Shown here: positions 5,303-19,609 of the stretch, piece by piece
How positions within the stretch are numbered: the first letter of the stretch is position 1
How the letters are laid out: the number at the start of each line of letters is the position of its first letter
Assembly (NCBI GenBank): GCA_964605105.1
Contig: CAZSBV010000005.1
Span: 1-21,762 of the forward strand
Direction of reading: 5' to 3'
DNA length: 21,762 nt
DNA from: an uncultured Lachnospiraceae bacterium
GTDB lineage: Bacteria; Bacillota; Clostridia; Lachnospirales; Lachnospiraceae
The notes under the pieces: generated by a model
Database searches by the model: none
Seen by the model: the letters and a program-made list of their open reading frames with translations, nothing else
Told to the model about the DNA's origin: nothing
Program-made: the position numbers and the translations under genes

Positions 5303-5556
5303 AAATTACCTCCAAAATCCAATTCCATCTGCTCCCACGGAGCATTTAATAACCTATCTGCTTTGTTCTGCATTACCGTGGTTAACTGCTCTTTCTCGAG
5401 ACATTCTAAGCATTTACCTCCTATCAGTTCACCCGGGTCACAGTTACCATGGCATACAGAACATTTATACCTATTCATACTGTAACGACTTCTTGCAATC
5501 TGCTCTTCTTTGTCTAAAATCCTTGCAAGCCATTCCCCTTGAACGGTCTGATGCAT
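5290..5556 (-). CDS. Hypothetical zinc-ribbon-like early protein (88 aa)
   Basis: CSVCHGNC...GGKCLEC pairs of Cys. SD-like AAAGGA upstream. Confidence 0.5.
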   Translation of the reverse strand: MHQTVQGEWLARILDKEEQIARSRYSMNRYKCSVCHGNCDPGELIGGKCLECLEKEQLTTVMQNKADRLLNAPWEQMELDFGGNLWKK

Positions 5557-5601
5557 TGCATCCTTTTCTTCTCTTACATTTATTACACTCTGATTTCATG
5601 C

Positions 5602-5630
5602 TTGTATTTTCCTTTCCACCATGCTAAAAT
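5602..5630 (+). promoter_or_regulatory. SigA-type promoter on the plus strand (TTGTAT-17-TGcTAAAAT), antisense to the early operon
   Basis: -35 TTGTAT at 5602-5607, 17-nt spacer, extended -10 TG-c-TAAAAT at 5622-5630. Confidence 0.5.
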
Positions 5631-5636
5631 AGTGAA

Positions 5637-5714
5637 AAATAACATGGTTATTTGTTTGGTTTAGTCTTGTGTATTAACTTTGGTCGGTCGTTACACAAGA
5701 CTATTTTCTTTTTT
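5637..5714 (+). ncRNA. Candidate ~78-nt cis-antisense sRNA
   Basis: Bounded by the promoter above and an intrinsic terminator. The terminator has an 11-bp perfect stem AGTCTTGTGTA/TACACAAGACT (5663-5673 / 5692-5702), an 18-nt loop and the tail ATTTTCTTTTTT. A 5-prime AT stem-loop AAATAAC-ATG-GTTATTT lies at 5637-5653. The RNA overlaps the stop codon and 3-prime end of the 45-aa minus-strand ORF. Confidence 0.35.
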
Positions 5715-5838
5715 CCTCTATTGCTGTTACTGCCATGATTGCCAGTCCACTAAGGACCATAATTACAGGAACCGTAATGTTAGGGCTGTCCATTCCTGCA
5801 CATCCTATTATCAATAATATAAAACCTACTGCTTGCAT
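5701..5838 (-). CDS. Small two-TM membrane peptide (45 aa), below the ORF-track cutoff
   Basis: Translates to MQAVGFILLIIGCAGMDSPNITVPVIMVLSGLAIMAVTAIEEKRK: two hydrophobic segments and a charged C-terminus. Start overlaps the end of the upstream 49-aa ORF. Confidence 0.4.
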   Translation of the reverse strand: MQAVGFILLIIGCAGMDSPNITVPVIMVLSGLAIMAVTAIEEKRK

Positions 5839-5975
5839 TCCTTATCCTTTTCTTCTTTTCCCAATACTTCAATTGTGTATTTGAACTTATATCCAAGCTG
5901 ATTCCCGATAAATTTATAAAGTGCTGCATAAATATCTTCTGTTTTTGGGAATGTTCCGCCTATTTCTACTGCCAT
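5826..5975 (-). CDS. Small hypothetical protein (49 aa), below the ORF-track cutoff
   Basis: Translates to MAVEIGGTFPKTEDIYAALYKFIGNQLGYKFKYTIEVLGKEEKDKECKQ. SD GGAGG lies 6 nt before the ATG, directly after the antirepressor stop. Confidence 0.4.
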   Translation of the reverse strand: MAVEIGGTFPKTEDIYAALYKFIGNQLGYKFKYTIEVLGKEEKDKECKQ

Positions 5976-5985
5976 TTCTTACCTC

Positions 5986-6720
5986 CTATACATCTAAAAT
6001 CATTTGTGCATTAGCTTCTCTAATTAATTCCTGCAAATATAAAGGTGCTTCGTAGTTGTCAACTAGCTCATGAGCTTCAAAGAGGTTTTTTCTCTTTAAA
6101 GCCTTATAAGATTTTGGTCTACCGTCATCCTGATAAAGTCCAAATTCTCTTTTAATCTGACTGTAGATATCGGTGTATACTTTCTTTCTGATAGAATCAT
6201 CTCTATATGCTTCTGCATTTTTCCCACCAAGAACTTCTACACCTTTTCTTTTTACATGGCTGGAAAGTTCGTCCGCTTCACTTCCGTATAAAGGAATGTC
6301 AAATTCTAACTTATCCAAACGTTTCTCCATATTTACTGTTCTGGTATCAAGAAGAACAATAGCCTGCATTTCTTTTGAAAGATTTGGCATTTGATACTGT
6401 CCATTTTTTCTAAGTTCTGGAAGAACTTCACTTGTTACCCAGTGCTTAAAGCGTTTAGCGGATTCTAACTTACTGCCAAAGATTAAAGCGTATAAACCAG
6501 ATTCGTTAATAATCCAAGACTCTTGTACTCTTCCTACTTCATCCATGATGGGATGTTTCATCCTGTCATCTTCTTCCACATGTCTTGAAATTGCCTTATG
6601 TGGTTCATTATATTTCAGCGATTCCGCTACATCCTTTCCTACAAAATAAATTTCATTATTTAATTCAACTGTTCTTATCTGCCCGAACTCGGCATTATTA
6701 AAAGTTTGTAATTCGTTCAA
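5986..6720 (-). CDS. Phage antirepressor (BRO-N domain + ORF6C-like C-terminal domain)
   Basis: N-terminal FNNAEFGQIRTVE..EIYFVGKDVAESLKY...INESGLYALIFGSKLESAKRFKHWVTSEVLPELRKNGQY is a typical BRO-N signature. The C-terminal half resembles the ORF6C antirepressor domain. TTG start with SD GGAGGAG. Confidence 0.8.
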   Translation of the reverse strand: MNELQTFNNAEFGQIRTVELNNEIYFVGKDVAESLKYNEPHKAISRHVEEDDRMKHPIMDEVGRVQESWIINESGLYALIFGSKLESAKRFKHWVTSEVLPELRKNGQYQMPNLSKEMQAIVLLDTRTVNMEKRLDKLEFDIPLYGSEADELSSHVKRKGVEVLGGKNAEAYRDDSIRKKVYTDIYSQIKREFGLYQDDGRPKSYKALKRKNLFEAHELVDNYEAPLYLQELIREANAQMILDV

Positions 6721-6730
6721 TTATCTCCTC

Positions 6731-6955
6731 CTATTCTTCTTCATGAATTTCTTTATCAAGTTTTAGATATATTTCAAATAAGGATTTTTCTAAAAAGAAA
6801 AGAGCACTGTCTATAGAACTAACATCCACAACATTTGTTCTTTCATCCGAAATTCCATATCTAATAAAAGTAAATCCGTTCAACACATCTCCTAAATCAT
6901 GTAAGATATCACTGATTTCTACTTTATCAATCTTTGCTTTAATTGTTTTTGCCAT
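6731..6955 (-). CDS. Hypothetical early protein (74 aa)
   Basis: ORF in the operon with SD AGGAGG upstream. No family recognised. Confidence 0.5.
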   Translation of the reverse strand: MAKTIKAKIDKVEISDILHDLGDVLNGFTFIRYGISDERTNVVDVSSIDSALFFLEKSLFEIYLKLDKEIHEEE

Positions 6956-6983
6956 TTCTGCCTCCTATATTTTGTGTTATACT
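6955..6983 (+). promoter_or_regulatory. Candidate extended -10 promoter for 7031..7231
   Basis: TG-t-TATACT at 6975-6983 with a weak -35 TTTCTG at 6955-6960 (17-nt spacer). Confidence 0.35.
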
Positions 6984-7030
6984 CCCCTTATCAGAACTGC
7001 CATTCTGAAATAATGTGAAAGGAGTTTTTT

Positions 7031-7231
7031 ATGACTAATAATGAGAAAACAGAACTTGCATCTAAGATAGCTGATGCCGCAATAGCAAGATATCTTCTTG
7101 CATATACTAAAAACCTTGAAGAATATACCGAAAAATACGGCGGTTCAGTAGCTCCGGCAAAAGCGATAAATGCTGCAATACCAGAATTAGCAAGAGGTAT
7201 CGCTGATGCAGTTTGTTCTATACTCCCCTAA
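7031..7231 (+). CDS. Hypothetical Ala-rich helical protein (66 aa), reverse-oriented inside the early region
   Basis: SD GAAAGGAG 6-7 nt before the ATG. No competing minus-strand ORF across this 270-nt interval. Own candidate promoter. Confidence 0.45.
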   Translation: MTNNEKTELASKIADAAIARYLLAYTKNLEEYTEKYGGSVAPAKAINAAIPELARGIADAVCSILP

Positions 7232-7341
7232 AATGGAATTTTGGTTCCATACTTAAGAAATTGCTGTATCTCTGAAATTTTATTTTCGAGATACTCAATC
7301 TTAAGTAATAGTTCTTTATACTTCTTTCTCGAAATCCACAT
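7228..7341 (-). CDS. Small coiled-coil-like ORF (37 aa), below the ORF-track cutoff
   Basis: Translates to MWISRKKYKELLLKIEYLENKISEIQQFLKYGTKIPF. SD GGAGG is present but the spacer is long (11 nt). Overlaps the end of 7031..7231 by 4 nt. Confidence 0.3.
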   Translation of the reverse strand: MWISRKKYKELLLKIEYLENKISEIQQFLKYGTKIPF

Positions 7342-7409
7342 CTATATTATTTCCTCCTTTCTTTCAACTTAGTTTGTCGCATGTCACGCGACAGAATCAT
7401 CAAAAAACT

Positions 7410-7619
7410 TTAACCAATCAGATATTCCAACGTCACACCGAAGTAATCAGCAATCTTAATAAGCTTATCTGTCTTTGGCATTGACTTTCCCGATTTCCAA
7501 TCGCTAAATACTGCTGATGAAAAACCTACTTCTTTAGCAAGTGCGTAAAAAGTAATTCCTCTCTTATTCACTAATTTTTCTAATTTGTGAAAACTGTTAA
7601 TTCTGTTTTCCTTGCTCAA
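7410..7619 (-). CDS. Cro-like XRE-family HTH regulator (69 aa), first gene of the early operon
   Basis: GITFYALAKEVGFSSAVFSDWKSGKSMPKTDKLIKIADYFGVTLEYLIG is a canonical HTH_XRE. TTG start with SD AGGAG 7 nt upstream. Divergent from the immunity-side promoters. Confidence 0.8.
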   Translation of the reverse strand: MSKENRINSFHKLEKLVNKRGITFYALAKEVGFSSAVFSDWKSGKSMPKTDKLIKIADYFGVTLEYLIG

Positions 7620-7637
7620 ATTCCTACTCCTTTCTAC

Positions 7638-7666
7638 TTGATATTAGTTAGGATATTCTGTATAAT
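7638..7666 (+). promoter_or_regulatory. Promoter P1 (TTGATA-17-TATAAT)
   Basis: -35 at 7638-7643, exactly 17-nt spacer, consensus -10 at 7661-7666. Confidence 0.6.
7646..7659 (+). promoter_or_regulatory. Operator-like 14-mer AGTTAGGATATTCT, copy 1 (inside the P1 spacer)
   Basis: Exact reverse complement recurs at 8058-8071. Partial copies at 8196-8203 (GTTAGGAT) and 8729-8738 (AATATCCTAA). Confidence 0.5.
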
Positions 7667-7688
7667 ACTATTTAGCCTTTCATGGCAA
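7659..7688 (-). promoter_or_regulatory. Candidate early promoter (PR-like) for the cro-like gene, sharing its -10 region with P1
   Basis: On the minus strand: -35 TTGCCA (7683-7688) and -10 candidates TATTAT (7662-7667) or TATACA (7659-7664). Hexamer quality and spacing (15-18 nt) are imperfect. Confidence 0.35.
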
Positions 7689-7715
7689 ATTTTGATTGCA
7701 AGGAGGTATTTTACC

Positions 7716-7799
7716 TTGAAAGCGGTTTTGAATTTGCCTGTTCCTTTAATTAGAGGTCGCAAACGTAGTACCAAAAAACTTCAAACTGGTCAAATGTAA
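7716..7799 (+). CDS. Possible 27-aa basic peptide ORF on the P1 transcript
   Basis: SD AAGGAGG 9 nt before a TTG. Translates to (M)KAVLNLPVPLIRGRKRSTKKLQTGQM. Very short and has a non-ATG start. Confidence 0.3.
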   Translation: MKAVLNLPVPLIRGRKRSTKKLQTGQM

Positions 7800-8018
7800 T
7801 AATTGATACAGCGTTAATTACTCAGAGAAGAGTTTAAAACTCATGCGTTGGCATCGTTCGTCTTGCCCACTGTATTGTTTATTCCTCTATTTCCTCCAAC
7901 AAAAGGCATCGCACGCTGAACTAAAACTGCATAAGTGGTGGAGTACTTAAAGAAACATTTGGTTCCGTCAACTGTGACGAAAGTCTGCAAAGTACATAAG
8001 GTTAAAAAATTTAGCATC

Positions 8019-8053
8019 AAACTGTCAAGAACGGAACTCTTGGCAGTTTTTTG
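8019..8053 (+). terminator. Rho-independent terminator ending the P1 transcript
   Basis: Stem CTGTCAAGA/TCTTGGCAG (8022-8030 / 8038-8046; 9 bp including one G-U), 7-nt loop, then TTTTTT at 8047-8052, with an A-tract upstream. Confidence 0.65.
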
Positions 8054-8228: not shown

Positions 8229-8534
8229 ATGTACGAGAGGTATTGTGAACTTAGGGATAAAAAAGGATATAAAGATTCTGATATTTCTAGACTTGCAGAT
8301 ATTACAAAATCAACTTTTACTGATTGGAAAAACGGCAAAAGCAAACCAAATGCTGAAAAGCTTATTAAAATCGCTAAATGCCTTGATACTACTGTTGAAT
8401 ATATTGTTACGGGGGAAAAACCTGAAATACCAAATATTGAAACAGAATATTTTGAATTGATGGAATTATATGAAAAATTAAAAGAAGAACAAAAAGTTGC
8501 CGTAATTAATTTATTGCGTTCATTTACTACTTGA
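8229..8534 (+). CDS. XRE-family HTH regulator (101 aa), paralogous to the Cro-like protein
   Basis: ISRLADITKSTFTDWKNGKSKPNAEKLIKIAKCLDTTVEYIV shares the S.F.DWK.GKS.P...KLIKIA motif with 7410..7619. SD AGGAGG upstream. Confidence 0.8.
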   Translation: MYERYCELRDKKGYKDSDISRLADITKSTFTDWKNGKSKPNAEKLIKIAKCLDTTVEYIVTGEKPEIPNIETEYFELMELYEKLKEEQKVAVINLLRSFTT

Positions 8535-8544
8535 GGAGAGCATA

Positions 8545-8997
8545 ATGGGATTATTTAAAAAGAAAATAAAAATGCCATCTGATATAGACAGAATCGAAAT
8601 AGAATATCAATTACAAAGGTTAAATTCTTATAATAACGGAGCTACAAAGGTAAATGATGTGGATCTTTTTATAAATGATGTTACATCAATAAAAGAAATT
8701 GTTGAAAACTTAATAAAATATGAGATTAAATATCCTAATTATTTCAATCCTAAACCATCTGAAATATTAAAAAATTTTAAAACAAATAATAAATTGATAT
8801 TAGAAAAAAACTTTATTGATAGATATATAATATCAATAGAACGAAAATTATTAGATTATTCTACCATGAGAGGAAAAACAAATAATTTTAACAAAAAAGT
8901 AGATTTGTTCAGGTATTATGCTGGAGAATTTGAACCGGAAAATGTCAATTACTTTGAAAGATGTTTGATTGAAAGATTCCCAGAATACTTACAATAA
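8545..8997 (+). CDS. Hypothetical protein (150 aa), very AT-rich, no recognisable domain
   Basis: SD GAGGAG 6 nt before the ATG and 10 nt after the XRE stop. Sampled 60-nt lines are about 25% GC versus about 38-48% in flanking phage genes. Confidence 0.6.
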   Translation: MGLFKKKIKMPSDIDRIEIEYQLQRLNSYNNGATKVNDVDLFINDVTSIKEIVENLIKYEIKYPNYFNPKPSEILKNFKTNNKLILEKNFIDRYIISIERKLLDYSTMRGKTNNFNKKVDLFRYYAGEFEPENVNYFERCLIERFPEYLQ

Positions 8998-9490: not shown

Positions 9491-9520
9491 TTGACGTTAT
9501 ACTACAAAGTATGTTAGAAT
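9491..9520 (+). promoter_or_regulatory. Promoter P3 (TTGACG-18-TGtTAGAAT) for the CI-like operon
   Basis: -35 at 9491-9496 and extended -10 TG-t-TAGAAT at 9512-9520. An 8-bp 5-prime hairpin CTATAGGG/CCCTATAG at 9529-9566 follows. Confidence 0.5.
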
Positions 9521-9630
9521 TTCCTTAACTATAGGGAGTCCGACCACGAATCAAAACCCCCTATAGAAGATTGAAGTTGTCTCTCTCTTAAGACTTCTTC
9601 ATTTTATACGAAAATTAGAATGGAGGAAAT

Positions 9631-10422
9631 ATGGCAAAAAACAAAAATGAAGAAAACATTTATTTAAAATTAGTTTCAAACACCGAAAATTATATGGAAA
9701 GTATGCGCTGCAATATTGGCTTGCTCAGGACTCATTATGGTTGGTCTGTCAGGGTATTGGCAGAAAAGGCTAATATATCCGAAGATACGCTCCAAACTTT
9801 CCTTAAAGGGAAATCTAAGGATTGCAATTTATTTACCGCTATAAGGCTTGCCAAAGCTTTAAACGTAAGCGTTGACGAGCTTGTCGGTGCTGAAACAATC
9901 GAAAAAGAAACCAGGGAATGCTTAGCAATGTCCCGGAATATGCCGGACTATGTGCGCTACCTAAACAGAGTATTTGTGAAACATCAGTACAAAATCCATA
10001 GCCAGTTTGACAATGAAAGCAAGAACATACCGGTTCTCTTGCCGGAATGCGTAAACGGGTACTTGAAAACAACTAACATTACATCGACAGTATGTGTAGA
10101 CCAACTGACAGATAGTGCAAAATCAAAAGTGTGCTTAGGGTTGCAAATCCCTTGCGATCACTACGAGCCTTTCTATATGCCGAACGATATTGTTCTATTA
10201 TCTGCTGACAGAAGTGCAGTTAACAACGAACGCTGTGTTGTCTGCCACAAGGGGAATTACTTCTTCGCAATTAAAAAGATATATATAGAGGGTTCTGAAA
10301 AGAAAGTTAAATACATTTCTATGATTGGGGGGAATACCGTTGTTTTCCCGAATGAAATAGATGATAAGCTGGGTTATGTTGTTGGATTCTTAAATCCGGA
10401 CGGTTCTTGGGGAATTAGATAA
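9631..10422 (+). CDS. CI/LexA-like repressor: XRE HTH + S24-like C-terminal domain with apparently degenerate active site
   Basis: HTH at WSVRVLAEKANISEDTLQTFLKGKSKDCNLFTAIRLAKALNVSVDELVG. The C-terminal region aligns by eye to the S24 fold (IPCDHYEPFYMPNDIVLL / FFAIKKIY / LGYVVGFL). Confidence 0.7.
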   Translation: MAKNKNEENIYLKLVSNTENYMESMRCNIGLLRTHYGWSVRVLAEKANISEDTLQTFLKGKSKDCNLFTAIRLAKALNVSVDELVGAETIEKETRECLAMSRNMPDYVRYLNRVFVKHQYKIHSQFDNESKNIPVLLPECVNGYLKTTNITSTVCVDQLTDSAKSKVCLGLQIPCDHYEPFYMPNDIVLLSADRSAVNNERCVVCHKGNYFFAIKKIYIEGSEKKVKYISMIGGNTVVFPNEIDDKLGYVVGFLNPDGSWGIR

Positions 10423-10439
10423 AGTAAAAGGAGGAAAAT

Positions 10440-10748
10440 ATGGCAATTAAAAATTGTCCGAAATGCGGAAGTAATAATATTTCATACCAAAGAGAACAAA
10501 CAGCAAATGTTGGTGCTGGAACAAACAAGGTGGTAATAAAAGAACCCAAAAGTCATGGTTGTTTCTGGTGGTTAATGATAGGTTGGTGGTGGAAGCCAAT
10601 ATACTGGATATGCATAGGTTGGTGGTGGAAACTATTTTTTGGAAGAAGAAAAAGTGGTTTAAATTTTAATGCTAGTAAATCCATCAATCATACTGTTGCA
10701 ATATGTCAGAATTGTGGTTATACTTGGAAAAATAAATTAAAGAAATAA
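10440..10748 (+). CDS. Split zinc-ribbon protein with a Trp-rich membrane hairpin (102 aa)
   Basis: CPKCG...CQNCG flank GCFWWLMIGWWWKPIYWICIGWWWKLFFG, which contains the internal repeat IGWWWK. SD AAAGGAGG upstream. Starts 17 nt after the CI-like stop. Confidence 0.65.
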   Translation: MAIKNCPKCGSNNISYQREQTANVGAGTNKVVIKEPKSHGCFWWLMIGWWWKPIYWICIGWWWKLFFGRRKSGLNFNASKSINHTVAICQNCGYTWKNKLKK

Positions 10749-10800
10749 AAATCGCCCCAGCGCTGAAAACACTGGAGCGACCCAAAATTACCCGAAAGTA

Positions 10801-10848
10801 CCAATGGATGATACATTTCACCGACAAATGAATTATATCATCCATTGG
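10801..10848. repeat. 48-bp element with perfect 13-bp terminal inverted repeats CCAATGGATGATA ... TATCATCCATTGG
   Basis: Arms at 10801-10813 and 10836-10848 with a 22-bp core, 27 nt upstream of the integrase start. Candidate attP or int operator. Confidence 0.5.
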
Positions 10849-10874
10849 AATAAAAATCAAGAAAGGATGATATT

Positions 10875-12314
10875 ATGCCAAAGAAAAAAAATGAGACAAT
10901 TAACTCAAGTGAAAGCACATCAAAGAAAATTGAGTCTGTAGCCGCCTATATCCGTGTAAGTACAACCGAACAAAAATTGCATGGTATTTCCCTAGATGCT
11001 CAGCGAATGAAACTGAAAGAATATGCAGAATCCCACAATATGAAAATTGTTGATTGGTATGAGGACGAAGGTGTTTCTGGAAGAAAACTGATAAGAAAAC
11101 GTCCGGAACTGCAAAGAATGATACAAGATGCGGAACAAAAGAAATTTGAAAAAATTATTTTCATTAAACTTGACCGCTTTTTCCGTTCTGTAGCTGAATA
11201 CCACGAATGTATGAAAAGAATATCCCCAGTGCTTTGGGAAGCTACTGAGGAAGAATATAACTTAACTACTGCTAACGGTAGAATGTTGGTAAATATGAAG
11301 CTGACTATTGCAGAATTAGAAGCAGATCAGACCGGAGAACGTATCAGGATAGTAAATGAATATAAAACTTCAAACGGGCAGCCATTAACCGGAACTATGC
11401 CATTCGGTTTTAAAATTGCAATTGATGATAAAACAGGCAGAAAGAAAATTATAAAGAATCCAGAACAGCAAGAAGCTTTAGAAGATTTATTAGAATACAT
11501 ATTTGCCTACAACAGTAAAAGAAAAGCACTTATGTATTTAAAAACAAAATATAATGTTGTAATGCCTTATAAATCTCTTACAACTTTATTAAGGAACACT
11601 ATGCTGTGTGGAGAATATAGAGGAAATAAAAAATACTGTGAAGCATATTTAAGCCGTGAAGAATTTGATAAATTACAGGAAATAGCAAATAAAAATAATA
11701 TAAAATGCAATACCGAAAAAAAAGAATATGTTTTTAGCGGCTTAATCAAATGCCCTGTGTGCGGCTGCAAACTTTCCGGCAATACAACTAAATGCAGAAT
11801 ACCAAGTGGCAGGGAATATTGGTATAAAAAATACAGATGCCTAAACTATTTTAACAACAATACATGCGAATTTAATAAATGTGTCAGTGAAAATGCTTTG
11901 GAGAGAGAATTGCTAAATATCTTTGAAGATTATGTTGAAAGCGTTAAATCAAATTTAAATGATGTTGAAAATTCTGATTTTGCAAATATTCCACAATACA
12001 ATGAGGAAGAAATAAATGAACAGATCGACAGGCTGAATTATTCATGGCAGACTGGTAAAATCAGAAAAGTTGAGCAATACGAAAGTCAATATGAAGAATT
12101 AATTAAAAAATTAGAATTGGCAAGAGAAGAAAAGAAAAAAGTTGTAATTCCGGACTTTTCAAAAGCAGAAAGTATTTTTAAAACAGGATGGAAAGATATT
12201 TATGCGCAGCTCGGCGAAGAAAATAAAAGGGCATTTTGGCGGTCCCTTATTTCTTCAATAGAAATTAATTGGACTACTGAAATAAAAGAGATAAAAAAGA
12301 TTAATTTTTTTTAG
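10875..12314 (+). CDS. int: Large serine recombinase (phage integrase)
   Basis: N-terminal resolvase domain AAYIRVSTTEQ...DEGVSG...RPELQRMI...KLDRFFRS, a recombinase domain, a Cys-rich zinc ribbon CPVCGCKLSG...YRCLNY...CEF, and a coiled-coil tail. Confidence 0.9.
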   Translation: MPKKKNETINSSESTSKKIESVAAYIRVSTTEQKLHGISLDAQRMKLKEYAESHNMKIVDWYEDEGVSGRKLIRKRPELQRMIQDAEQKKFEKIIFIKLDRFFRSVAEYHECMKRISPVLWEATEEEYNLTTANGRMLVNMKLTIAELEADQTGERIRIVNEYKTSNGQPLTGTMPFGFKIAIDDKTGRKKIIKNPEQQEALEDLLEYIFAYNSKRKALMYLKTKYNVVMPYKSLTTLLRNTMLCGEYRGNKKYCEAYLSREEFDKLQEIANKNNIKCNTEKKEYVFSGLIKCPVCGCKLSGNTTKCRIPSGREYWYKKYRCLNYFNNNTCEFNKCVSENALERELLNIFEDYVESVKSNLNDVENSDFANIPQYNEEEINEQIDRLNYSWQTGKIRKVEQYESQYEELIKKLELAREEKKKVVIPDFSKAESIFKTGWKDIYAQLGEENKRAFWRSLISSIEINWTTEIKEIKKINFF

Positions 12315-12409: not shown

Positions 12410-13414
12410 TTAATTATAAAACGCTGCCTGAATCGTATTATATCCGGCAATACCATCTTCTTTTAATCCAAGCTTATGCTGCAACTGCAAACATTCACTT
12501 CTGGAAGTCTTGCCATAAAGACCATCTTCCACCTGAGCATGTCCAAGGATTTCATTGCAGCGTCCCTGAAACCAAACAACCACATGACCTTTATATCCTA
12601 CTTTCCAAGATAAACCTGCCTTATTGGCTTTCATAAGGATCTGTTTTCTGACGTACTGCGTTTTCGGTCCGTCAATTCCATCCTCTTTTAATAATTGTCC
12701 GTTCATATCAACATAAGAATCAATGTTAGCTGCCTTTTGGAAGTTAAGTATATTGATATTGCAATTACTGTTCTCTTCCGGCTCCTTAGATACCGTCTCA
12801 AAGTCTGTATAGAACTCATTTACATCGACGTTTCCATTTATGCCGGGAATTGTACCACTTGAAGTAAACTGCCAGATATCAGCCTTATTTTTTTCTTCTG
12901 TGGTGATTGCTGATGCATATCTGGCATACCAAAGATATACTTTTTCAAACTGAATGGTAATCTTGTCCATGTCAAAATAATTCTTTAAGTAGTCTTTGTT
13001 GGAATAGATTACCGGAATATATCCTAACTCTTCCACTCTTCGCATAAAGGCTACTGCCATCTTTGTGGCAAGGTCTTTAGTGATTTCCACTCCCTGAGTC
13101 CTTGCATATCTTACGGAATCATATTCCAAGTCGAAAGCAATCGGGCATTTATCCCAGTATTTCTTTGCATGCTCTACGGCATATTCCGCTTCTTTTACTG
13201 CCATTTCTTCATTGTAGGCATAAGAGAACCAGTAAAGGATTACCGGCACTCCTAAATTTACACAAGCCAAAGCATTTTTATTAAATTTCTGGTCTGTATT
13301 GTTCTTTCCAAATCCGGCACGGATTCCGATTCTTTTATATCCTGCATCACGTACTCTTTTAATATCTACATCTCCGTTGTGTGTTGAAATGTCTGGTCCC
13401 TGATAAACTGTCAT
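12410..13414 (-). CDS. Endolysin: GH25 muramidase + C-terminal peptidoglycan-binding (PG_binding_1-like) repeats
   Basis: N-terminal GPDISTHNGDVDIKRVRDAGYKRIGIRAGFG...ILYWFSYA...AFDLEYD fits GH25. C-terminal DGIDGPKTQ and EDGLYGKTS...LGLKEDGIAGYNT fit PG_binding_1. SD AGGAGG upstream. No signal peptide. Confidence 0.85.
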   Translation of the reverse strand: MTVYQGPDISTHNGDVDIKRVRDAGYKRIGIRAGFGKNNTDQKFNKNALACVNLGVPVILYWFSYAYNEEMAVKEAEYAVEHAKKYWDKCPIAFDLEYDSVRYARTQGVEITKDLATKMAVAFMRRVEELGYIPVIYSNKDYLKNYFDMDKITIQFEKVYLWYARYASAITTEEKNKADIWQFTSSGTIPGINGNVDVNEFYTDFETVSKEPEENSNCNINILNFQKAANIDSYVDMNGQLLKEDGIDGPKTQYVRKQILMKANKAGLSWKVGYKGHVVVWFQGRCNEILGHAQVEDGLYGKTSRSECLQLQHKLGLKEDGIAGYNTIQAAFYN

Positions 13415-13547
13415 GTATGTACCTCCTAATATAAATCAATATTTTTGTTTCATAAAAACAAAATACCATCATCGGCCATCTTTTATGGCAAATACTGCCG
13501 CTCACTTGCTGCTGGAGCATATAACTATAAAAATCTTTTTTTCACAA

Positions 13548-13901
13548 CTACATTCCTACCATCATAGCTTTTTCCTCTGCTTCTTTCATTTCTTCCTCCG
13601 TTATCGTAGGTTCTGAAAAAGTTTCTTCAATCCGATTGATTTCAGCCCTCCATTTTTCACGATCTTCCCGGATTGGAAAATATTCCTCTTCTGTCATGAC
13701 ACCTTCCGAGTATTTCAGTGCCTTATAATCCGATTCTGCCAACAACTTCTTCAATTCCCTGATCCTTGCATACTGTTTCTTTTGCACTTCATCGTATTCA
13801 AGACAGATTGAAAAATCACCATCTTTCACGACAATTCCATCTTCCCTGAAAAAATGGGTTATTATTCTTCCGTCCCTTGTAATAATCATATTAATTTCCA
13901 T
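13548..13901 (-). CDS. Hypothetical soluble acidic protein downstream of the tail-tip gene (start uncertain)
   Basis: The ORF is open to a TTG at 13946 with no SD. ATGs at 13901 and 13889 follow a GAAAGGA. No TM segment, so it is not a holin. Confidence 0.45.
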   Translation of the reverse strand: MEINMIITRDGRIITHFFREDGIVVKDGDFSICLEYDEVQKKQYARIRELKKLLAESDYKALKYSEGVMTEEEYFPIREDREKWRAEINRIEETFSEPTITEEEMKEAEEKAMMVGM

Positions 13902-13985
13902 CCTTTCTACTTCTTTAAGACAAAAATAGATATTAACTTCATCCAACCATAGTTAGTCACTAATACTTTACTTTTACACCACTAT

Positions 13986-16467: not shown

Positions 16468-18972
16468 CTAATTCAGCTCTACAAACATGTTTGTCCCGGT
16501 AGATGCCTGCAATAATTTAGCTTTTTCAAGCATGATTTCAAATAATTTCATTCCGTCAAAATGCACCGGTATAGTCACATTTCCGCTGATATTGCCGCCT
16601 CCAGTTTCTTCCCTTACAATTTTACGAATCAAATCTTCCGGTGCTTCAATGTTATTTCCATGTTTCTGGTCTCCGAGCATTGCTAAAAATGGAGCATTTG
16701 GTGGAATAACGGCACCGGTTGCAAGATATGGAATCTGTGGTGCGCTTACACTAGAAATATTTAAAGAAAATTCTTTACCACCAATTAAAGGAATCCAATC
16801 AGGAACATCAAATTTTAAAGAATTTAAAGCCGAAACCATGCTATTAATTCCATTAACAATACCTGAAATCATTTTATTAATAACACCAATAATTCCATTA
16901 ATAGACTTTTTGATTCCACTAACAATTCCATCCCAAATAGCAAGTACCTTATTTTTTACTTCGTTAAAAATATTTATAACTGTGTCCTTGATTGTTATAA
17001 ATATTTGCTTAAACTTATTAAATAAGCTCTCGATACCGTTAATAAGTCCCTGCATGATAAACGTTCCTATTTCTGCCATTACAGTAGATGGGGAGTGAAT
17101 ACCAAAGGCTTCGCAAAATCCGTTGTAAAAAGGATAAAAAATATTATCCATGATCCATGTACCAATATTTTTTACAATTTCCCACATTCCGTTAAGCAAT
17201 CCTTGCATGGTAAATTTACCGCCTTCAAAAGCAACTTCTTTCCACCAATCAACAATTTCATTCCATGAATCTTTAATTGTTCCCCACACAAGTTGAAGAG
17301 CTGCGCCAAATGCTGCGCCAATTCCCTCTGATACTCTGTTGACTATGCCGCTCCAATCAATTCCTCCAAAAAAATCAGTTATAGCATCACCTATTTGTTG
17401 CCAATCAATTTCTTCTACAGCTCCAACAATTAAATCCAATAATCCTTTGACTGCTTCGCCTAATGTTTTCCCTGCTTTTTGCCAATCGATTTCACTGACA
17501 ATACCATTAATACCTTCCGCCAACTTCTTTCCAAGATTTTTCCAATCAATCCCGGTAATAAATTCATAAAGAATATTAACTAATGTATTTATTCCAGCTC
17601 CTATAGTTCGTCCCAGCAAATTCCAATCAATATTTTCTACCAAGCTATTAAAAGTGCCTGTAATTCCTTCAATAAAAGGTACTATTTTATCTCTTACATT
17701 TTCCCAATTCAATGCGTCATATAAAAATTGAAGCCCTTTATTGATGCCTGACGCAAGATAGGCTCCTAAACCTTCCCAATCTTTATCTAGGAATAATTTT
17801 TTAATATTTTCAAACACTTCTTTAACTTTGTCTGCAAATGCTTGTATAGGACTTTCTATCTCTACTTCTTCAAACATATTTGTTGCAGAAATACCAGTAG
17901 TTCCTGTTTCTTCCTGTTTTGAAGTAAATGTTCTTATTTCGTCTAGTCCACTTAGATATTTCTGTGCTTTTTTGGCCGACTCTGCGGTACTATTAAGGCT
18001 TTCCGCATAATCTTCTTGTACAGCAATAGCCTTTGTATATGTATTTTTTCCGGCTAATGCAGAAAAAAAAGCTCCTACCATGTTTGCTGCTTTTGACAAC
18101 ATATCTATAAATTTTGTGAGTATAGGTGCAACTACATTTAAAATAGGCGCAAACGCTGTAGCCAGACTGTTTTTGAGCTGCGTTAAGGATGATTTTAATG
18201 CAGACATAGAGGAATTAGCTTCACTTGAATACTGTACAAGATTATTTATGCCCTCTTTTGCATACTCAACTGCTTTTCGTACTGCAGAATACAAAGACCT
18301 TATTCCTAATGAATAACCCAACATTTTTTTAAATGAAGTACCTACACCACCAATATTTTTCTTTAATGTGAGCATATATTTAGCAATTTGTTTTATTTTT
18401 TGACCAAGAATTTTAATTTCGTTCAAGACAGAACGTCCGGCAAACTGTGCTAAACTTTTTGCGGCTTTTGCTAGATTAGGTAGTAAATTTTTAAACGCTC
18501 TTTTTATTCCATTAACAGTATTTTGTAACATTATTGCGTTTTCAGATGTATAACTTTCTTGTGCTGTCATTTCTTGTAGTTTTGCCTTGGTTAAATCAAC
18601 AGCATTATTTAAAGAATACAACGTTTGTGCTGTTTCTGCTTGTTTTAATTTTGCTGTATCTAAAGCAGCAGTAGCTTTTTCAATGTCATATTCCATTTGC
18701 AAAAAAGTGCGATTATTTGTTTTTCCGCCAGTTTCTACATAGCGAATTTGTTTCTCAATGAGTTTGTCAAGTGCGACAGATGTCTTCTCCACTTCGGCTG
18801 TGTTCTGATTATGAGCTTTGGTGACTTCTTTTTGCTTTTTTAATAATTCGTACAGTTCACTTGCAGTCTTTTTGATATCTTCACTATAAGATTCAAAAGC
18901 TTCACCAAAACCGTCACTATTCACTATTGTATCTATATATACAGCACCATCACTTTTTGCCATATTATTCAC
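16468..18972 (-). CDS. Tail tape measure protein (834 aa)
   Basis: Largest tail-module ORF. Coiled-coil N-terminus, Gly/Ile/Ala-rich hydrophobic segments, and periodic IDW repeats. Lies downstream of the chaperone genes. Confidence 0.85.
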   Translation of the reverse strand: MNNMAKSDGAVYIDTIVNSDGFGEAFESYSEDIKKTASELYELLKKQKEVTKAHNQNTAEVEKTSVALDKLIEKQIRYVETGGKTNNRTFLQMEYDIEKATAALDTAKLKQAETAQTLYSLNNAVDLTKAKLQEMTAQESYTSENAIMLQNTVNGIKRAFKNLLPNLAKAAKSLAQFAGRSVLNEIKILGQKIKQIAKYMLTLKKNIGGVGTSFKKMLGYSLGIRSLYSAVRKAVEYAKEGINNLVQYSSEANSSMSALKSSLTQLKNSLATAFAPILNVVAPILTKFIDMLSKAANMVGAFFSALAGKNTYTKAIAVQEDYAESLNSTAESAKKAQKYLSGLDEIRTFTSKQEETGTTGISATNMFEEVEIESPIQAFADKVKEVFENIKKLFLDKDWEGLGAYLASGINKGLQFLYDALNWENVRDKIVPFIEGITGTFNSLVENIDWNLLGRTIGAGINTLVNILYEFITGIDWKNLGKKLAEGINGIVSEIDWQKAGKTLGEAVKGLLDLIVGAVEEIDWQQIGDAITDFFGGIDWSGIVNRVSEGIGAAFGAALQLVWGTIKDSWNEIVDWWKEVAFEGGKFTMQGLLNGMWEIVKNIGTWIMDNIFYPFYNGFCEAFGIHSPSTVMAEIGTFIMQGLINGIESLFNKFKQIFITIKDTVINIFNEVKNKVLAIWDGIVSGIKKSINGIIGVINKMISGIVNGINSMVSALNSLKFDVPDWIPLIGGKEFSLNISSVSAPQIPYLATGAVIPPNAPFLAMLGDQKHGNNIEAPEDLIRKIVREETGGGNISGNVTIPVHFDGMKLFEIMLEKAKLLQASTGTNMFVELN
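17353..17631 (-). repeat. Periodic CCAATC(A/G)AT motif (encodes IDW on the minus strand), 5 copies within the TMP
   Basis: Copies at 17353, 17401, 17482, 17542 and 17623, with spacings of 48, 81, 60 and 81 nt (all multiples of 3). Confidence 0.7.
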
Positions 18973-18992
18973 CTCTTGCTATATAAGGTTAG

Positions 18993-19016
18993 GGGCATTC
19001 ATCCAACTGAATGCCC
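18993..19016 (+). other. 9-bp GC-rich hairpin GGGCATTCA/TGAATGCCC between the Gp15-like and TMP genes
   Basis: 6-nt loop. The T-rich tail GTTTATTTCTTCTT follows only on the plus (antisense) strand. Confidence 0.5.
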
Positions 19017-19018
19017 GT

Positions 19019-19609
19019 TTATTTCTTCTTGTAACCAAAGTAATTGCGAAGAGCTTCTTTTTCTTCTTCGCTCCTTTGGGATTTTTGCTTAAATTCAATC
19101 AATGACTTATTTTCTTTGTAAAATTCCTCTTCCCACTTTTCCAGCTTTTTGCCTTTTGCTTTCTTTTGACGTATATGTATAATAGTAGAAAATAAACTTT
19201 CTCCAATTTCCATATATGCACCAAAGAAAGTCCACCAGTGCATATACTTTACGGATCTTATTTCAGTATTTAAGACCTTGTTTATCGCCGGGATAAGGAT
19301 AGGGGCATCCTGTTCCCAATCCATTGTTTTCGGTTTTTTACAGTCATCTATGATACCCATGTCAATAAATTTAACAACTTTTTCTAAAGCTTCTTTTATA
19401 TATTCTTGTGGTATACTCTCATAATCAGGAAACATAATTTCCATCATTACACTGTTTTGTATATATGCAGCTATTTCAGGATTTCTGTCTTTCAGTTCCG
19501 GGTCATTAAGGGCGGTCAAAACATCTAATACCGCCCTATAATCTGTACGAATCTCATATTCTACTCCACCAATATTTAAGGTTTTAGGAAATTCCCATGC
19601 GCTACCCAT
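19019..19609 (-). CDS. Gp15-family-like tail assembly protein
   Basis: The GVEYEIRTDYRAVLDVLTALNDPEL motif resembles the Phage_Gp15 family. Sits directly before the TMP. Own SD GAGGT and ATG. Confidence 0.55.
   Translation of the reverse strand: MGSAWEFPKTLNIGGVEYEIRTDYRAVLDVLTALNDPELKDRNPEIAAYIQNSVMMEIMFPDYESIPQEYIKEALEKVVKFIDMGIIDDCKKPKTMDWEQDAPILIPAINKVLNTEIRSVKYMHWWTFFGAYMEIGESLFSTIIHIRQKKAKGKKLEKWEEEFYKENKSLIEFKQKSQRSEEEKEALRNYFGYKKK

What the first reader, a model, noticed from the sequence alone, without database searches (positions are those of the whole stretch)
9631..10748. Two-gene unit: CI-like regulator + Trp-rich split zinc-ribbon membrane protein between repressor and integrase (candidate exclusion/abortive-infection module)
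Seen: 10440-10748 starts 17 nt after the CI-like stop and has its own strong SD, so the two are probably co-transcribed from P3 in the lysogen. The product is a zinc ribbon (CPKCG ... CQNCG) split by a 30-residue aromatic membrane hairpin, GCFWWLMIGWWWKPIYWICIGWWWKLFFG, which contains the internal duplication IGWWWK. I do not recognise the family. Established: in lactococcal P335-type phages the slot between the repressor and the integrase holds membrane-associated superinfection-exclusion genes of the Sie2009 type. Prophage immunity regions are known hotspots for defence morons. Inference: this is a lysogen-expressed membrane effector, either blocking DNA injection or acting as an abortive-infection pore. 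It could also be the missing holin-like function, because none lies next to the endolysin.
Basis: partly seen in the sequence, partly recalled or inferred. Interest (0 to 1): 0.65.

Follow-up and report, generated by a model that had tools for sequence, protein, structure and literature searches.

The report
Prophage zinc-ribbon membrane-hairpin moron
A small, unnamed phage protein, a zinc ribbon split by a tryptophan-rich membrane hairpin, recurs as a swappable cargo gene just upstream of integrases in gut Clostridia phages; it is a plausible but untested new superinfection-exclusion or defence factor and is not a fixed partner of the neighbouring CI-like repressor.

Summary
ORFs 9631-10422 (263 aa) and 10440-10748 (102 aa) are real and lie 17 nt apart. 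The second has an AGGAGG site, CPKC and CQNC knuckles, and a 29-residue Trp-rich insert with an IGWWWK duplication.

The 263-aa protein is a true CI/LexA-fold regulator. It is the core regulator of a phage lineage that almost never carries the small gene (0 of 80 viral loci), so the "two-gene unit" is not a conserved module.

The small protein belongs to an unnamed family with no Pfam, NCBIfam or PADLOC hit above cut-off. The family comprises 304 clusters at 50% identity, from gut Clostridia MAGs and viral contigs. Fusions to HIRAN, extra zinc ribbons and a TM+LRR ectodomain put both ends of the module in the cytoplasm, so the insert is a membrane hairpin.

Of 113 non-redundant loci, 52% have an XRE-type HTH gene within three genes upstream. 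35% have a tyrosine or serine integrase within three genes downstream on the same strand. Eight relatives sit directly before the tape-measure gene, the HK97 gp15 slot.

Canonical holins coexist with the gene in relatives, so it is probably not a holin. Exclusion or defence at the membrane is the best reading, but it rests on inference only.

The parts
9491..9520 (+). Sigma-70-like promoter (TTGACG-18-TAGAAT, TG-extended) for the CI-like/small transcript
   Evidence: The -35 and -10 hexamers are conserved in leaders of CI-like homologues.
9529..9609 (+). Structured 5' leader. Hairpin 1 is at 9529-9566 and hairpin 2 at 9572-9601, followed by a U-rich tract. A pyrimidine stretch at 9521-9526 can pair with the RBS.
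   Evidence: The alignment and single-sequence folds of 9 leaders keep two hairpins with different sequences. RNAalifold on the MAFFT alignment gave no consensus, so covariation is not formally shown.
9631..10422 (+). CI/LexA-fold regulator, 263 aa: N-terminal XRE HTH plus a C-terminal S24-like beta domain with invariant PC[D/E]HYEP
10429..10434 (+). Shine-Dalgarno AGGAGG of the small gene
10440..10748 (+). Small gene, 102 aa: TFIIS-like four-Cys zinc ribbon split by a Trp-rich hydrophobic hairpin
10455..10466 (+). First zinc knuckle, C6-P-K-C9
   Evidence: C6, P7 and C9 are invariant in A1.
10560..10646 (+). Hydrophobic insert, residues 41-69 (CFWWLMIGWWWKPIYWICIGWWWKLFFGR). It is flanked by net-positive segments and is inferred to be a cytoplasm-in, cytoplasm-out membrane hairpin.
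   Evidence: Wimley-White octanol -21.3 and interface -20.8 kcal/mol. Flank charges across the family. Fusion architectures.
10569..10630 (+). Two 26-nt direct repeats (10569-10594 and 10605-10630) encoding W(L/I)xIGWWWK twice
   Evidence: Variants P0042 and P0046 lack exactly one repeat unit.
10704..10715 (+). Second zinc knuckle, C89-Q-N-C92
   Evidence: C89, Q90, C92 and G93 are conserved at 90% or more.
10749..10783 (-). 16-pair hairpin abutting the stop codon of the small gene. The T-run is only on the minus strand.
   Evidence: Homologous hairpins occur in L053, L006, L057, L060, L009 and L134.
10832..10860 (-). Conserved minus-strand promoter (TTGATT-17-TGaTATAAT) in the integrase leader. 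With the hairpin above it defines a candidate antisense RNA of about 85 nt (about 10825 to 10741).
   Evidence: The nhmmer profile finds it in 12 loci, always 20-80 nt upstream of an integrase.
10875..12314 (+). Large serine recombinase (integrase)

Best explanation
Gene 10440-10748 is an autonomous cargo gene (moron) of the lysogeny arm, not a partner of the CI-like regulator.

Shown. It encodes a member of an unnamed protein family from gut Clostridia phages and prophages. A four-cysteine, TFIIS-like zinc ribbon is interrupted in its beta-hairpin loop by a 24-32-residue aromatic hydrophobic segment flanked by positive charge on both sides. Fusion proteins place both ends of the module in the cytoplasm. 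The segment must therefore dip into the membrane and return, as a helical or re-entrant hairpin, holding the ribbon at the inner face. The gene is typically the last gene of the repressor-side operon, immediately upstream of an integrase of either class. It can be swapped for other cassettes.

Inferred. In the window it is transcribed from the promoter at 9491-9520, through a structured leader, together with the CI-like gene. It would therefore be made in the lysogen.

Inferred by analogy. It most likely acts at the cytoplasmic membrane to protect the lysogen from incoming phages. The most probable mode is interference with tape-measure/DNA-channel formation or capture of entering DNA at the inner leaflet (superinfection exclusion). 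A less likely mode is a trigger-dependent membrane-damaging effector.
For: Family. There are 47 close clusters, 52 genome loci in Clostridia MAGs, 158 viral contigs and 304 clusters at 50% identity. No source gives a name. No Pfam, NCBIfam or PADLOC hit passes cut-off.

Zinc ribbon. The Cys residues are invariant. The TFIIS model scores 20.2 bits against a 21-bit cut-off. The AF2 model has strands 14-22, 81-89 and 95-98.

Topology. HIRAN lies C-terminal in P0100 and P0149 and N-terminal in P0181, without an intervening TM. Extra N-terminal zinc ribbons occur. P0054 and L003 have module-TM-LRR_5 ectodomain. Both flanks are positively charged across the family.

Position. The typical order is HTH(-) HTH(+) [0-2 cargo] SMALL(+) Int(+). 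59 of 113 loci have an HTH upstream, 39 of 113 an integrase downstream, and 35 have both. Pfam on direct neighbours finds 19 tyrosine and 7 serine integrases among 95 downstream genes.

Second slot. A sub-branch sits directly upstream of the tape measure. That is the slot of HK97 gp15, a proven inner-membrane exclusion moron (PMC3594210). The integrase-repressor slot holds Sie2009-type membrane proteins in lactococcal phages (PMC7693887).

Cassette behaviour. The closest homologue (83% identity) precedes a tyrosine integrase, whereas the window has a serine integrase. In mouse-gut contigs the ORF of L006 is replaced by 479 other bases with conserved flanks.

Rosetta stone. A TM+LRR-like surface protein is encoded next to the gene in L220, L221 and L058 and is fused to it in P0054 and L003 (48% identity, E 1e-69).
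Against: No functional data exist for any family member. No expression data could be obtained: there were no runs for the window, and only contigs for L006.

The protein has essentially no extracellular part, unlike Ltp or Sie2009-type proteins, which act at the outer face.

About 40% of loci show neither an HTH nor an integrase nearby. Some members lie among replication and packaging genes.

The small gene has no promoter of its own in the window, and its GC content (33%) is not deviant.

Genes in the integrase-repressor slot do not always give phage resistance when tested (Dub35A orf3-5, PMC7693887).

AF2 draws the insert as one continuous helix at moderate confidence (pLDDT 67.6). Foldseek gives no significant match.
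Confidence: 0.45

Rival explanations
1. The protein is a generic membrane-anchoring or adaptor module for other prophage-encoded envelope proteins, or a lysogenic-conversion factor unrelated to phage exclusion. The stand-alone protein would pair with, or organise, a membrane partner such as a surface LRR protein.
For: The module is fused to, or encoded next to, a TM+LRR_5-like ectodomain protein. It is also fused or adjacent to a two-TM domain (weak, E 1e-5) and to zinc-ribbon+2TM N-terminal regions. These architectures fit an anchor domain.
Against: The window encodes no such partner nearby: the upstream genes are soluble. Same-strand upstream neighbours are not enriched for TM proteins (12 of 83 against 16% background). 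The conserved ribbon-surface residues (QREQ, GTNKV) suggest a specific interaction of its own.
Confidence: 0.2
2. The protein is an abortive-infection or addiction-type toxic membrane effector. The Trp-rich hairpin would damage the membrane when released from control. That control might come from the convergent antisense RNA, in a type I toxin-antitoxin-like arrangement.
For: The protein is small, strongly membrane-partitioning and has a basic C-terminal part. A conserved minus-strand promoter and a terminator abut the stop codon, so a roughly 85-nt RNA would overlap the 3' end of the mRNA. This layout resembles the convergent type I systems of Firmicutes prophages (my own knowledge of txpA/RatA and bsrG/SR4).
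Against: The antisense element follows the integrase, not the small gene. In L007, L008 and L050 it lies upstream of int with a different gene, or 4.7 kb of other DNA, in between. The protein is 102 aa with a folded zinc ribbon, larger than known type I toxins. There is no PADLOC hit.
Confidence: 0.15
3. The protein is a lysogeny-control accessory. It would be a membrane-tethered factor that modulates integration/excision or the lysis-lysogeny decision, for example by acting on a membrane protease or by sequestering a regulator.
For: It is consistently placed between the repressor-side regulators and int, often 30-130 nt before int. It is co-oriented with both. M78/ImmA-type proteases occur as neighbours in some loci.
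Against: It precedes both serine and tyrosine integrases, and it occurs in phages with no integrase nearby (L005, L220-L224). It also occurs in tail and replication modules. It is frequently absent from otherwise similar phages, so it is not a core lysogeny function.
Confidence: 0.1
4. The CI-like regulator and the small protein form a dedicated two-gene exclusion or abortive-infection module in which sensor/regulator and effector work together.
For: The two genes are 17 nt apart and probably co-transcribed. The same pair occurs in L134, with 45% identity for the CI-like protein and 83% for the small protein.
Against: 0 of 80 viral loci with a CI-like homologue carry the small gene. The CI-like gene is a length-conserved core gene with its own conserved leader, paired with an HTH gene of about 120 aa, in phages of about 55 kb. 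Only 2 of the roughly 115 small-gene loci examined have this neighbour.
Confidence: 0.05
5. The small protein is the phage's holin or pinholin.
For: No holin is recognisable next to the GH25 endolysin in the window or in L134. The protein is small, has a two-arm membrane segment with both ends inside, and has a charged C-terminus, like class II holins.
Against: It is on the strand opposite the late/lysis operon and directly behind a repressor-like gene. There are no holin hits in Pfam or PHROGs. Relatives carry it alongside bona fide holins. The arms are too short for two full spans.
Confidence: 0.03

Closest known systems
Sie2009-type superinfection-exclusion proteins of lactococcal P335 phages (Tuc2009, LC3)
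   Same: Both are small membrane-associated proteins encoded between the repressor and the integrase in the lysogeny module of temperate Firmicutes phages. Both are presumably lysogen-expressed (PMC7693887).
   Different: No sequence relationship was detected: there are no PHROG or Pfam hits. Sie2009 has a hydrophobic N-terminus. Here the hydrophobic part is central and sits inside a zinc ribbon, with both termini cytoplasmic and almost nothing exposed outside. Function is untested.
HK97 gp15 (YebO-like) exclusion moron
   Same: [quoted passage not shown] Eight of 113 family members occupy exactly that junction, phrog_706 | small | TMP. The window has the same phrog_706-TMP junction, but it is empty.
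   Different: gp15 is a single-span protein without a zinc ribbon and is found in Enterobacteria. The window's copy is in the lysogeny arm. It shows no own promoter and no GC deviation.
TFIIS/Rpb9-type zinc ribbon (Pfam PF01096)
   Same: Both have two CxxC knuckles and a three-stranded sheet. The sequence pattern is similar (CPKCG..i.YQ.eQ ... TvAiCQNCG..W). The score is 20.2 bits against a 21-bit cut-off. Some homologues have a PF01096 hit on record. The weak top Foldseek hits are TFIIS and Rpb9.
   Different: The loop that carries the acidic hairpin in TFIIS is replaced by about 65 residues containing a membrane hairpin. There is no link to RNA polymerase. The match is below the Pfam threshold.
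Type I toxin-antitoxin systems of Firmicutes prophages (txpA/RatA, bsrG/SR4 type)
   Same: Both involve a small hydrophobic prophage protein with a convergent small RNA whose terminator overlaps the 3' end of the mRNA.
   Different: The protein is twice the usual size and carries a zinc ribbon. The RNA element is tied to the integrase leader rather than to this gene.
Lambda CI / 186 CI / LexA (for the 263-aa neighbour)
   Same: Both combine an XRE HTH with a C-terminal S24-like beta domain. Foldseek gives E 5e-8 to 1e-4.
   Different: Pfam Peptidase_S24 is not detected. The family-invariant motif is PC[D/E]HYEP where LexA has GDSMxP, so His stands where I expect the catalytic Ser (alignment by eye). 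The protein probably does not self-cleave, like 186 CI.

Membership tests
Sie2009-type lactococcal Sie | Gene lies between the repressor and integrase genes of the lysogeny module | tested here: met
   Window order: cro-like(-) | HTH101, unk150, CI-like, small, serine integrase, all (+). The order recurs in 35 of 113 loci.
Sie2009-type lactococcal Sie | Sequence homology to characterised Sie proteins | tested here: not met
   No PHROG or Pfam family annotated as exclusion is hit. Only zinc-knuckle matches of unknown function appear, at E of 5e-4 or weaker. There is no tblastn match in 50,697 GenBank phages.
Sie2009-type lactococcal Sie | [quoted passage not shown] | tested here: not met
   The protein is membrane-seeking, but the hydrophobic segment is central (residues 41-69). 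The N-terminus is a zinc knuckle.
Sie2009-type lactococcal Sie | Blocks DNA injection of heterologous phages | not testable with these tools
   Needs EOP, adsorption and DNA-entry assays.
HK97 gp15-type moron | Inserted between the tail chaperone and tape-measure genes | tested here: not met
   Not met for the window, where the junction 18973-19018 is empty. Met for 8 distant family members.
HK97 gp15-type moron | Own promoter and terminator, and deviant GC content | tested here: not met
   The gap to the upstream gene is 17 nt. There is no plus-strand terminator. GC is 33.0% against 35.4% for the window.
TFIIS-type zinc ribbon (PF01096) | Four Cys in two CxxC knuckles flanking a three-stranded sheet | tested here: met
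   C6/C9 are invariant and C89/C92 are conserved at 90% or more. AF2 gives strands 14-22, 81-89 and 95-98 at pLDDT of about 76.
TFIIS-type zinc ribbon (PF01096) | Score above the Pfam gathering threshold | tested here: not met
   20.2 bits against 21. The homologues P0008, P0035 and P0045 have a PF01096 hit on record.
Holins | Encoded in the lysis cassette next to the endolysin, on the late strand | tested here: not met
   The gene is on the opposite strand, 1.7 kb from the lysin and behind a repressor-like gene. Relatives have separate Holin_SPP1 or Phage_holin_5_2 genes.
Holins | Match to a holin family | tested here: not met
   None in Pfam or PHROGs.
Type I toxin-antitoxin | Toxin under about 60 aa with a single TM helix | tested here: not met
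   102 aa, with a zinc ribbon plus a hairpin.
Type I toxin-antitoxin | Dedicated antisense RNA overlapping the toxin mRNA | tested here: inconclusive
   A candidate minus-strand promoter and terminator exist. However, the element co-occurs with integrases independently of the small gene in 3 of 12 loci. No transcript data are available.
Known anti-phage defence systems (PADLOC-DB 2.0) | Match to any component model | tested here: not met
   0 families for the small protein at E up to 0.1.
LexA/CI S24 repressors (263-aa neighbour) | N-terminal HTH plus a C-terminal S24-like fold | tested here: met
   Pfam HTH_26/HTH_3. Foldseek matches 7jvt, 3bdn, 2fjr, 3k2z and 1jhe.
LexA/CI S24 repressors (263-aa neighbour) | Ser-Lys catalytic dyad for self-cleavage | tested here: inconclusive
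   Peptidase_S24 is not detected. The invariant PC[D/E]HYEP motif has His where GDSMxP has Ser, and K215 is invariant. No residue-level structural superposition was available.

The most novel reading that the evidence does not exclude
The split zinc ribbon with its Trp-rich re-entrant hairpin is a previously undescribed membrane-embedded nucleic-acid- or protein-sensing module. Held at the inner leaflet, it would intercept the incoming phage genome end or the tape-measure channel. The HIRAN (3'-DNA-end-binding) fusions are consistent with this. That would define a new mechanistic class of superinfection exclusion in Gram-positive gut phages, one that works from the cytoplasmic face.
Probability: 0.15. 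Interest if true: 0.75.

Novelty: new variant of a known kind. Interest (0 to 1): 0.5.

Why it matters
Temperate phages of gut Clostridia (Lachnospiraceae, Ruminococcus and relatives) are abundant and almost uncharacterised. Few of their lysogeny-module cargo genes have known functions.

This family is a tractable candidate. It is small, widespread (at least 158 viral contigs and 304 clusters at 50% identity) and positionally stereotyped. It has no homology to known exclusion or defence proteins, and its zinc-ribbon/membrane-hairpin architecture appears unreported.

If the family excludes phages, it would add a new exclusion family for Gram-positive hosts. It would also mark the slot immediately upstream of the integrase leader as a cassette-exchange hotspot worth mining.

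The work also corrects the idea that the CI-like gene is part of the module.

Tried and rejected
1. CI-like plus small gene as a conserved pair: rejected. 0 of 80 viral loci and 0 of 5 other loci carry both; L134 is the only exception.

2. Holin: rejected on strand, context and coexistence with canonical holins. No holin was found in the window either.

3. Type I toxin-antitoxin: I found a conserved convergent promoter and terminator. The nhmmer profile then showed that the element belongs to the integrase leader.

4. The inverted repeat upstream of int as attP: rejected. The same element precedes both serine and tyrosine integrases. In L006 the chromosome, with a tRNA array, begins downstream of int.

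5. GenBank phages: no tblastn hit for the small protein and no megablast hit for the window.

6. Expression evidence: there are no public runs for the window. Runs for L006 are kept only as contigs and give no expression information.

7. Foldseek of the small-protein model against the PDB: nothing significant. The model is of moderate confidence only.

8. RNAalifold on the CI-like leader: no consensus on the MAFFT alignment. Single-sequence folds do show two hairpins.

9. Literature searches for a split zinc ribbon, a membrane hairpin in prophage exclusion, or HIRAN-TM defence proteins: nothing relevant.

10. Source names for family members: none.
Full report
**What is in the window**

The two ORFs are exactly as described. 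ORF 9631-10422 (+) encodes 263 aa. It ends 17 nt before ORF 10440-10748 (+), which encodes 102 aa and is preceded by AGGAGG.

The window is a temperate siphophage segment. Early genes on the minus strand run leftwards from a Cro-like HTH gene at 7619-7410. On the plus strand lie HTH101 (8229-8534), a very AT-rich 150-aa ORF, a 633-nt gap, the CI-like gene, the small gene and a large serine recombinase (10875-12314). Converging on these from the right, on the minus strand, are a GH25 endolysin (12410-13414), tail proteins, the tape measure (16468-18972) and a phrog_706 protein (19019-19609).

No GenBank phage resembles the window.

**The CI-like protein**

- Pfam finds only the HTH.
- An AF2 model built on 34 homologues (pLDDT 88) matches the lambda/186 repressors and LexA over both domains.
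- The family is length-conserved at 262-263 aa and has an invariant PC[D/E]HYEP motif. By eye, His stands where LexA-type GDSMxP has the catalytic Ser, so self-cleavage is doubtful.

The gene's context settles the question of a two-gene unit.

- In three metagenomic phage contexts it follows an HTH gene of about 120 aa and a gap of about 400-470 nt. It is followed directly by the converging lysis or tail genes.
- One further copy is chromosomal.
- Across 80 viral contigs plus those loci, none but L134 carries the small gene within 5 kb.
- 84 of 86 loci have no integrase within 5 kb.
- The promoter and a two-hairpin leader upstream of the CI-like gene are conserved across these loci.

The CI-like gene is therefore a core regulator of a phage lineage. 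The window's small gene plus integrase are additions downstream of it.

**The small protein**

No Pfam, NCBIfam or PADLOC model passes its threshold. The best match is the TFIIS zinc ribbon at 20.2 bits against a 21-bit cut-off.

The protein nevertheless belongs to a real family:

- 47 close clusters at 39-83% identity, none named;
- 52 loci in genomes, nearly all gut Clostridia MAGs;
- 158 viral contigs;
- 304 clusters at 50% identity among 1.84 billion representatives.

The alignment shows C6, P7, C9, Q17 and W44 invariant. The segments around YQREQ, G.GTNKV and TVAICQNCG.SW are strongly conserved.

AF2 gives three strands (14-22, 81-89, 95-98) and one helix (41-67) at moderate confidence. 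Foldseek finds nothing significant. Its weak top hits are TFIIS, Rpb9 and ribosomal ribbons.

The insert is a tandem duplication, W(L/I)xIGWWWK twice. At DNA level this is a 26-nt direct repeat. Two database variants lack exactly one unit.

**Topology**

The insert is 24-32 residues across the family. It has net positive charge on both flanks and a very favourable Wimley-White partitioning energy, about -21 kcal/mol on both the octanol and interface scales.

Natural fusions fix the orientation.

- HIRAN, a cytoplasmic DNA-end-binding domain, is attached C-terminally in P0100 and P0149.
- HIRAN is attached N-terminally in P0181.
- In neither case is there an intervening TM segment.
- Many members have additional N-terminal zinc ribbons.
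- In P0054 and L003 the module is followed by a classical TM helix and an LRR_5-like ectodomain.

Both ends of the module are therefore cytoplasmic, and the aromatic insert is a hairpin. It is too short for two full spans, so it is probably re-entrant or membrane-thinning. That last point is inference.

A gene fission/fusion pair supports physical cooperation with envelope proteins in a sub-branch. The TM+LRR protein encoded 11 nt upstream of the small gene in L220 is 48% identical (E 1e-69) to the C-terminal two-thirds of the fused P0054. It also occurs upstream in L058.

**Genomic position**

I called ORFs myself and classified them with jackhmmer, checking against Pfam. Among 113 non-redundant loci:

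| Feature | Observed | Expected from gene frequencies in the same loci |
|---|---|---|
| XRE-type HTH gene within three genes upstream | 59 (52%) | about 17% |
| Integrase within three genes downstream, same strand | 39 (35%) | about 8% |
| Both | 35 | not computed |

The recurrent order is cro-like(-) | repressor(+), 0-2 cargo genes, SMALL, integrase. Both tyrosine and serine integrases occur.

The gene immediately upstream is highly variable. Examples are Mrr_cat+FtsK-gamma, SAP, DUF4352, HSDR_N, membrane proteins and the repressor itself.

The closest homologue, P0001 (83% identity), follows a 45%-identical CI-like gene but precedes a tyrosine integrase.

In mouse-gut contigs related to L006, the small ORF is replaced precisely by 479 other bases between conserved flanks.

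Some relatives lack an integrase altogether. They still place the gene at the end of the repressor-side operon, facing a lysis cassette that has its own canonical holin.

A more distant sub-branch lies directly upstream of the tape-measure gene, after a phrog_706/Phage_Gp15 protein. The window has that same junction unoccupied.

Other members lie among replication and packaging genes.

This is the behaviour of a mobile cargo gene with a strong preference for two classical moron slots.

- One is the integrase-repressor interval, where lactococcal Sie2009-type membrane proteins reside (PMC7693887).
- The other is the chaperone-tape-measure junction, where the HK97 gp15 exclusion moron resides (PMC3594210).

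**The element between the small gene and int**

A strong hairpin (10749-10783) abuts the stop codon, but its T-run is on the minus strand. Further right, a minus-strand promoter (TTGATT-17-TGnTATAAT, 10860-10832) is conserved in seven aligned loci. Together they predict a roughly 85-nt RNA convergent with the small gene.

I tested whether this makes the locus a type I toxin-antitoxin pair. A DNA profile finds the element in 12 loci. It always lies 20-80 nt upstream of an integrase start, serine or tyrosine. In three of the 12 loci the small gene is not adjacent.

The element therefore belongs to the integrase leader. It is a candidate antisense regulator of int or of read-through into int. It does not belong to the small gene, and it is not attP.

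**Interpretation**

Shown:

- The gene and its protein family are real.
- The zinc-ribbon/hairpin architecture has both ends cytoplasmic.
- The gene has cassette-like mobility.
- It is enriched at the end of the repressor-side operon before int.
- It is independent of the CI-like family.

Inferred:

- It is expressed in the lysogen. This follows from co-orientation, the 17-nt spacing behind a repressor-type gene and the conserved promoter.
- It acts at the membrane against superinfecting phages.

I put about 0.45 on a protective (exclusion or defence) role, with exclusion more likely than abortive infection. I put 0.2 on an anchor or adaptor role for other envelope proteins, and 0.1 on a lysogeny-control accessory. 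The dedicated two-gene module (0.05) and the holin (0.03) are minor options.

**Novelty**

The kind of feature, a membrane moron in the lysogeny module, is known. The protein family and its architecture are not described in the libraries or literature searched.

Noticed in passing
window 7892-8052 (+): A full-length FuFi-1 RNA (Rfam RF02986, 128.5 bits against a gathering score of 59.6) sits in the immunity switch region, between the Cro-like gene (7619-7410, -) and HTH101 (8229, +). It ends in the terminator-like hairpin at 8019-8049. A strong minus-strand promoter-like site (8187-8159) would transcribe antisense through it towards cro. The function of FuFi-1 is unknown (PMC5737381). A related terminator-ended motif, skipping-rope RNA, lies in the lysogeny module of L060 (7246-7323).
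   Followed up: partly
window 10741-10866 (-); also L134, L006, L007, L008, L009, L050, L053, L057, L060, L067: A conserved minus-strand promoter plus intrinsic terminator predicts an antisense RNA of about 85 nt in the integrase leader. On the plus strand the region includes a 13-bp-arm inverted repeat, CCAATGGATGATA...TATCATCCATTGG (10802-10849). It lies 20-80 nt upstream of both serine and tyrosine integrases, so it is probably an int-regulatory element rather than attP.
   Followed up: yes
window 9491-9630 (+); L135-L146 upstream of CI-like homologues: The CI-like gene has a conserved promoter and a leader of about 100 nt. The leader has two hairpins whose sequences differ between loci, a U-rich tract after hairpin 2, and a pyrimidine stretch able to pair with the RBS. 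This looks like an attenuator or autoregulatory leader. RNAalifold on the automatic alignment gave no consensus.
   Followed up: partly
window 9631-10422 (+): The CI-like family has invariant C65, H118, C140, C175, H177 and K215 and an invariant PC[D/E]HYEP motif in place of the S24 GDSMxP motif. This may be a metal site or a non-cleaving variant. 84 of 86 loci with this gene have no integrase within 5 kb, so the lineage may be non-integrating, or it may integrate by a distant gene.
   Followed up: partly
L142-L216, just downstream of CI-like homologues: In the roughly 55-kb phages the slot after the CI-like gene holds plus-strand ORFs of 70-130 aa. They share a conserved N-terminal peptide (…MTASVNGKL) and have hypervariable beta-rich C-terminal parts. 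They face a minus-strand gene of about 415-445 aa. This looks like exchangeable or invertible receptor-binding tip cassettes.
   Followed up: no
window 8545-8997 (+): A 150-aa ORF directly behind HTH101 has extremely low GC (22.7%; GC3 17%) against 35% for the window. It has no Pfam hit and only a weak phrog_17596 hit. It is likely a separately acquired moron.
   Followed up: no
L006 8012-8297, in runs X1-X4: In mouse-gut assemblies a related prophage has the small ORF replaced by 479 other bases, and the upstream cargo (5527-7932) replaced by 1963 other bases. The junctions are conserved, so cassette exchange occurs at this slot.
   Followed up: partly
window 18973-19018; L090, L097, L109, L115, L079, L070, L085: The window's phrog_706-to-tape-measure junction is empty. 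In related tail modules, distant members of the small-protein family are inserted at exactly this junction.
   Followed up: yes
window 12410-13946 (-): No holin is recognisable beside the GH25 endolysin. The adjacent 132-aa ORF has no TM segment and no PHROG hit. The closest relative, L134, also shows none. The only convincing small two-TM ORF in the window is 5701-5838 (-), in the early region.
   Followed up: partly
P0042, P0046 (homologues): Two database variants lack exactly one W(L/I)xIGWWW unit. This fits deletion between the 26-nt direct repeats. They may be defective copies or assembly collapses.
   Followed up: no
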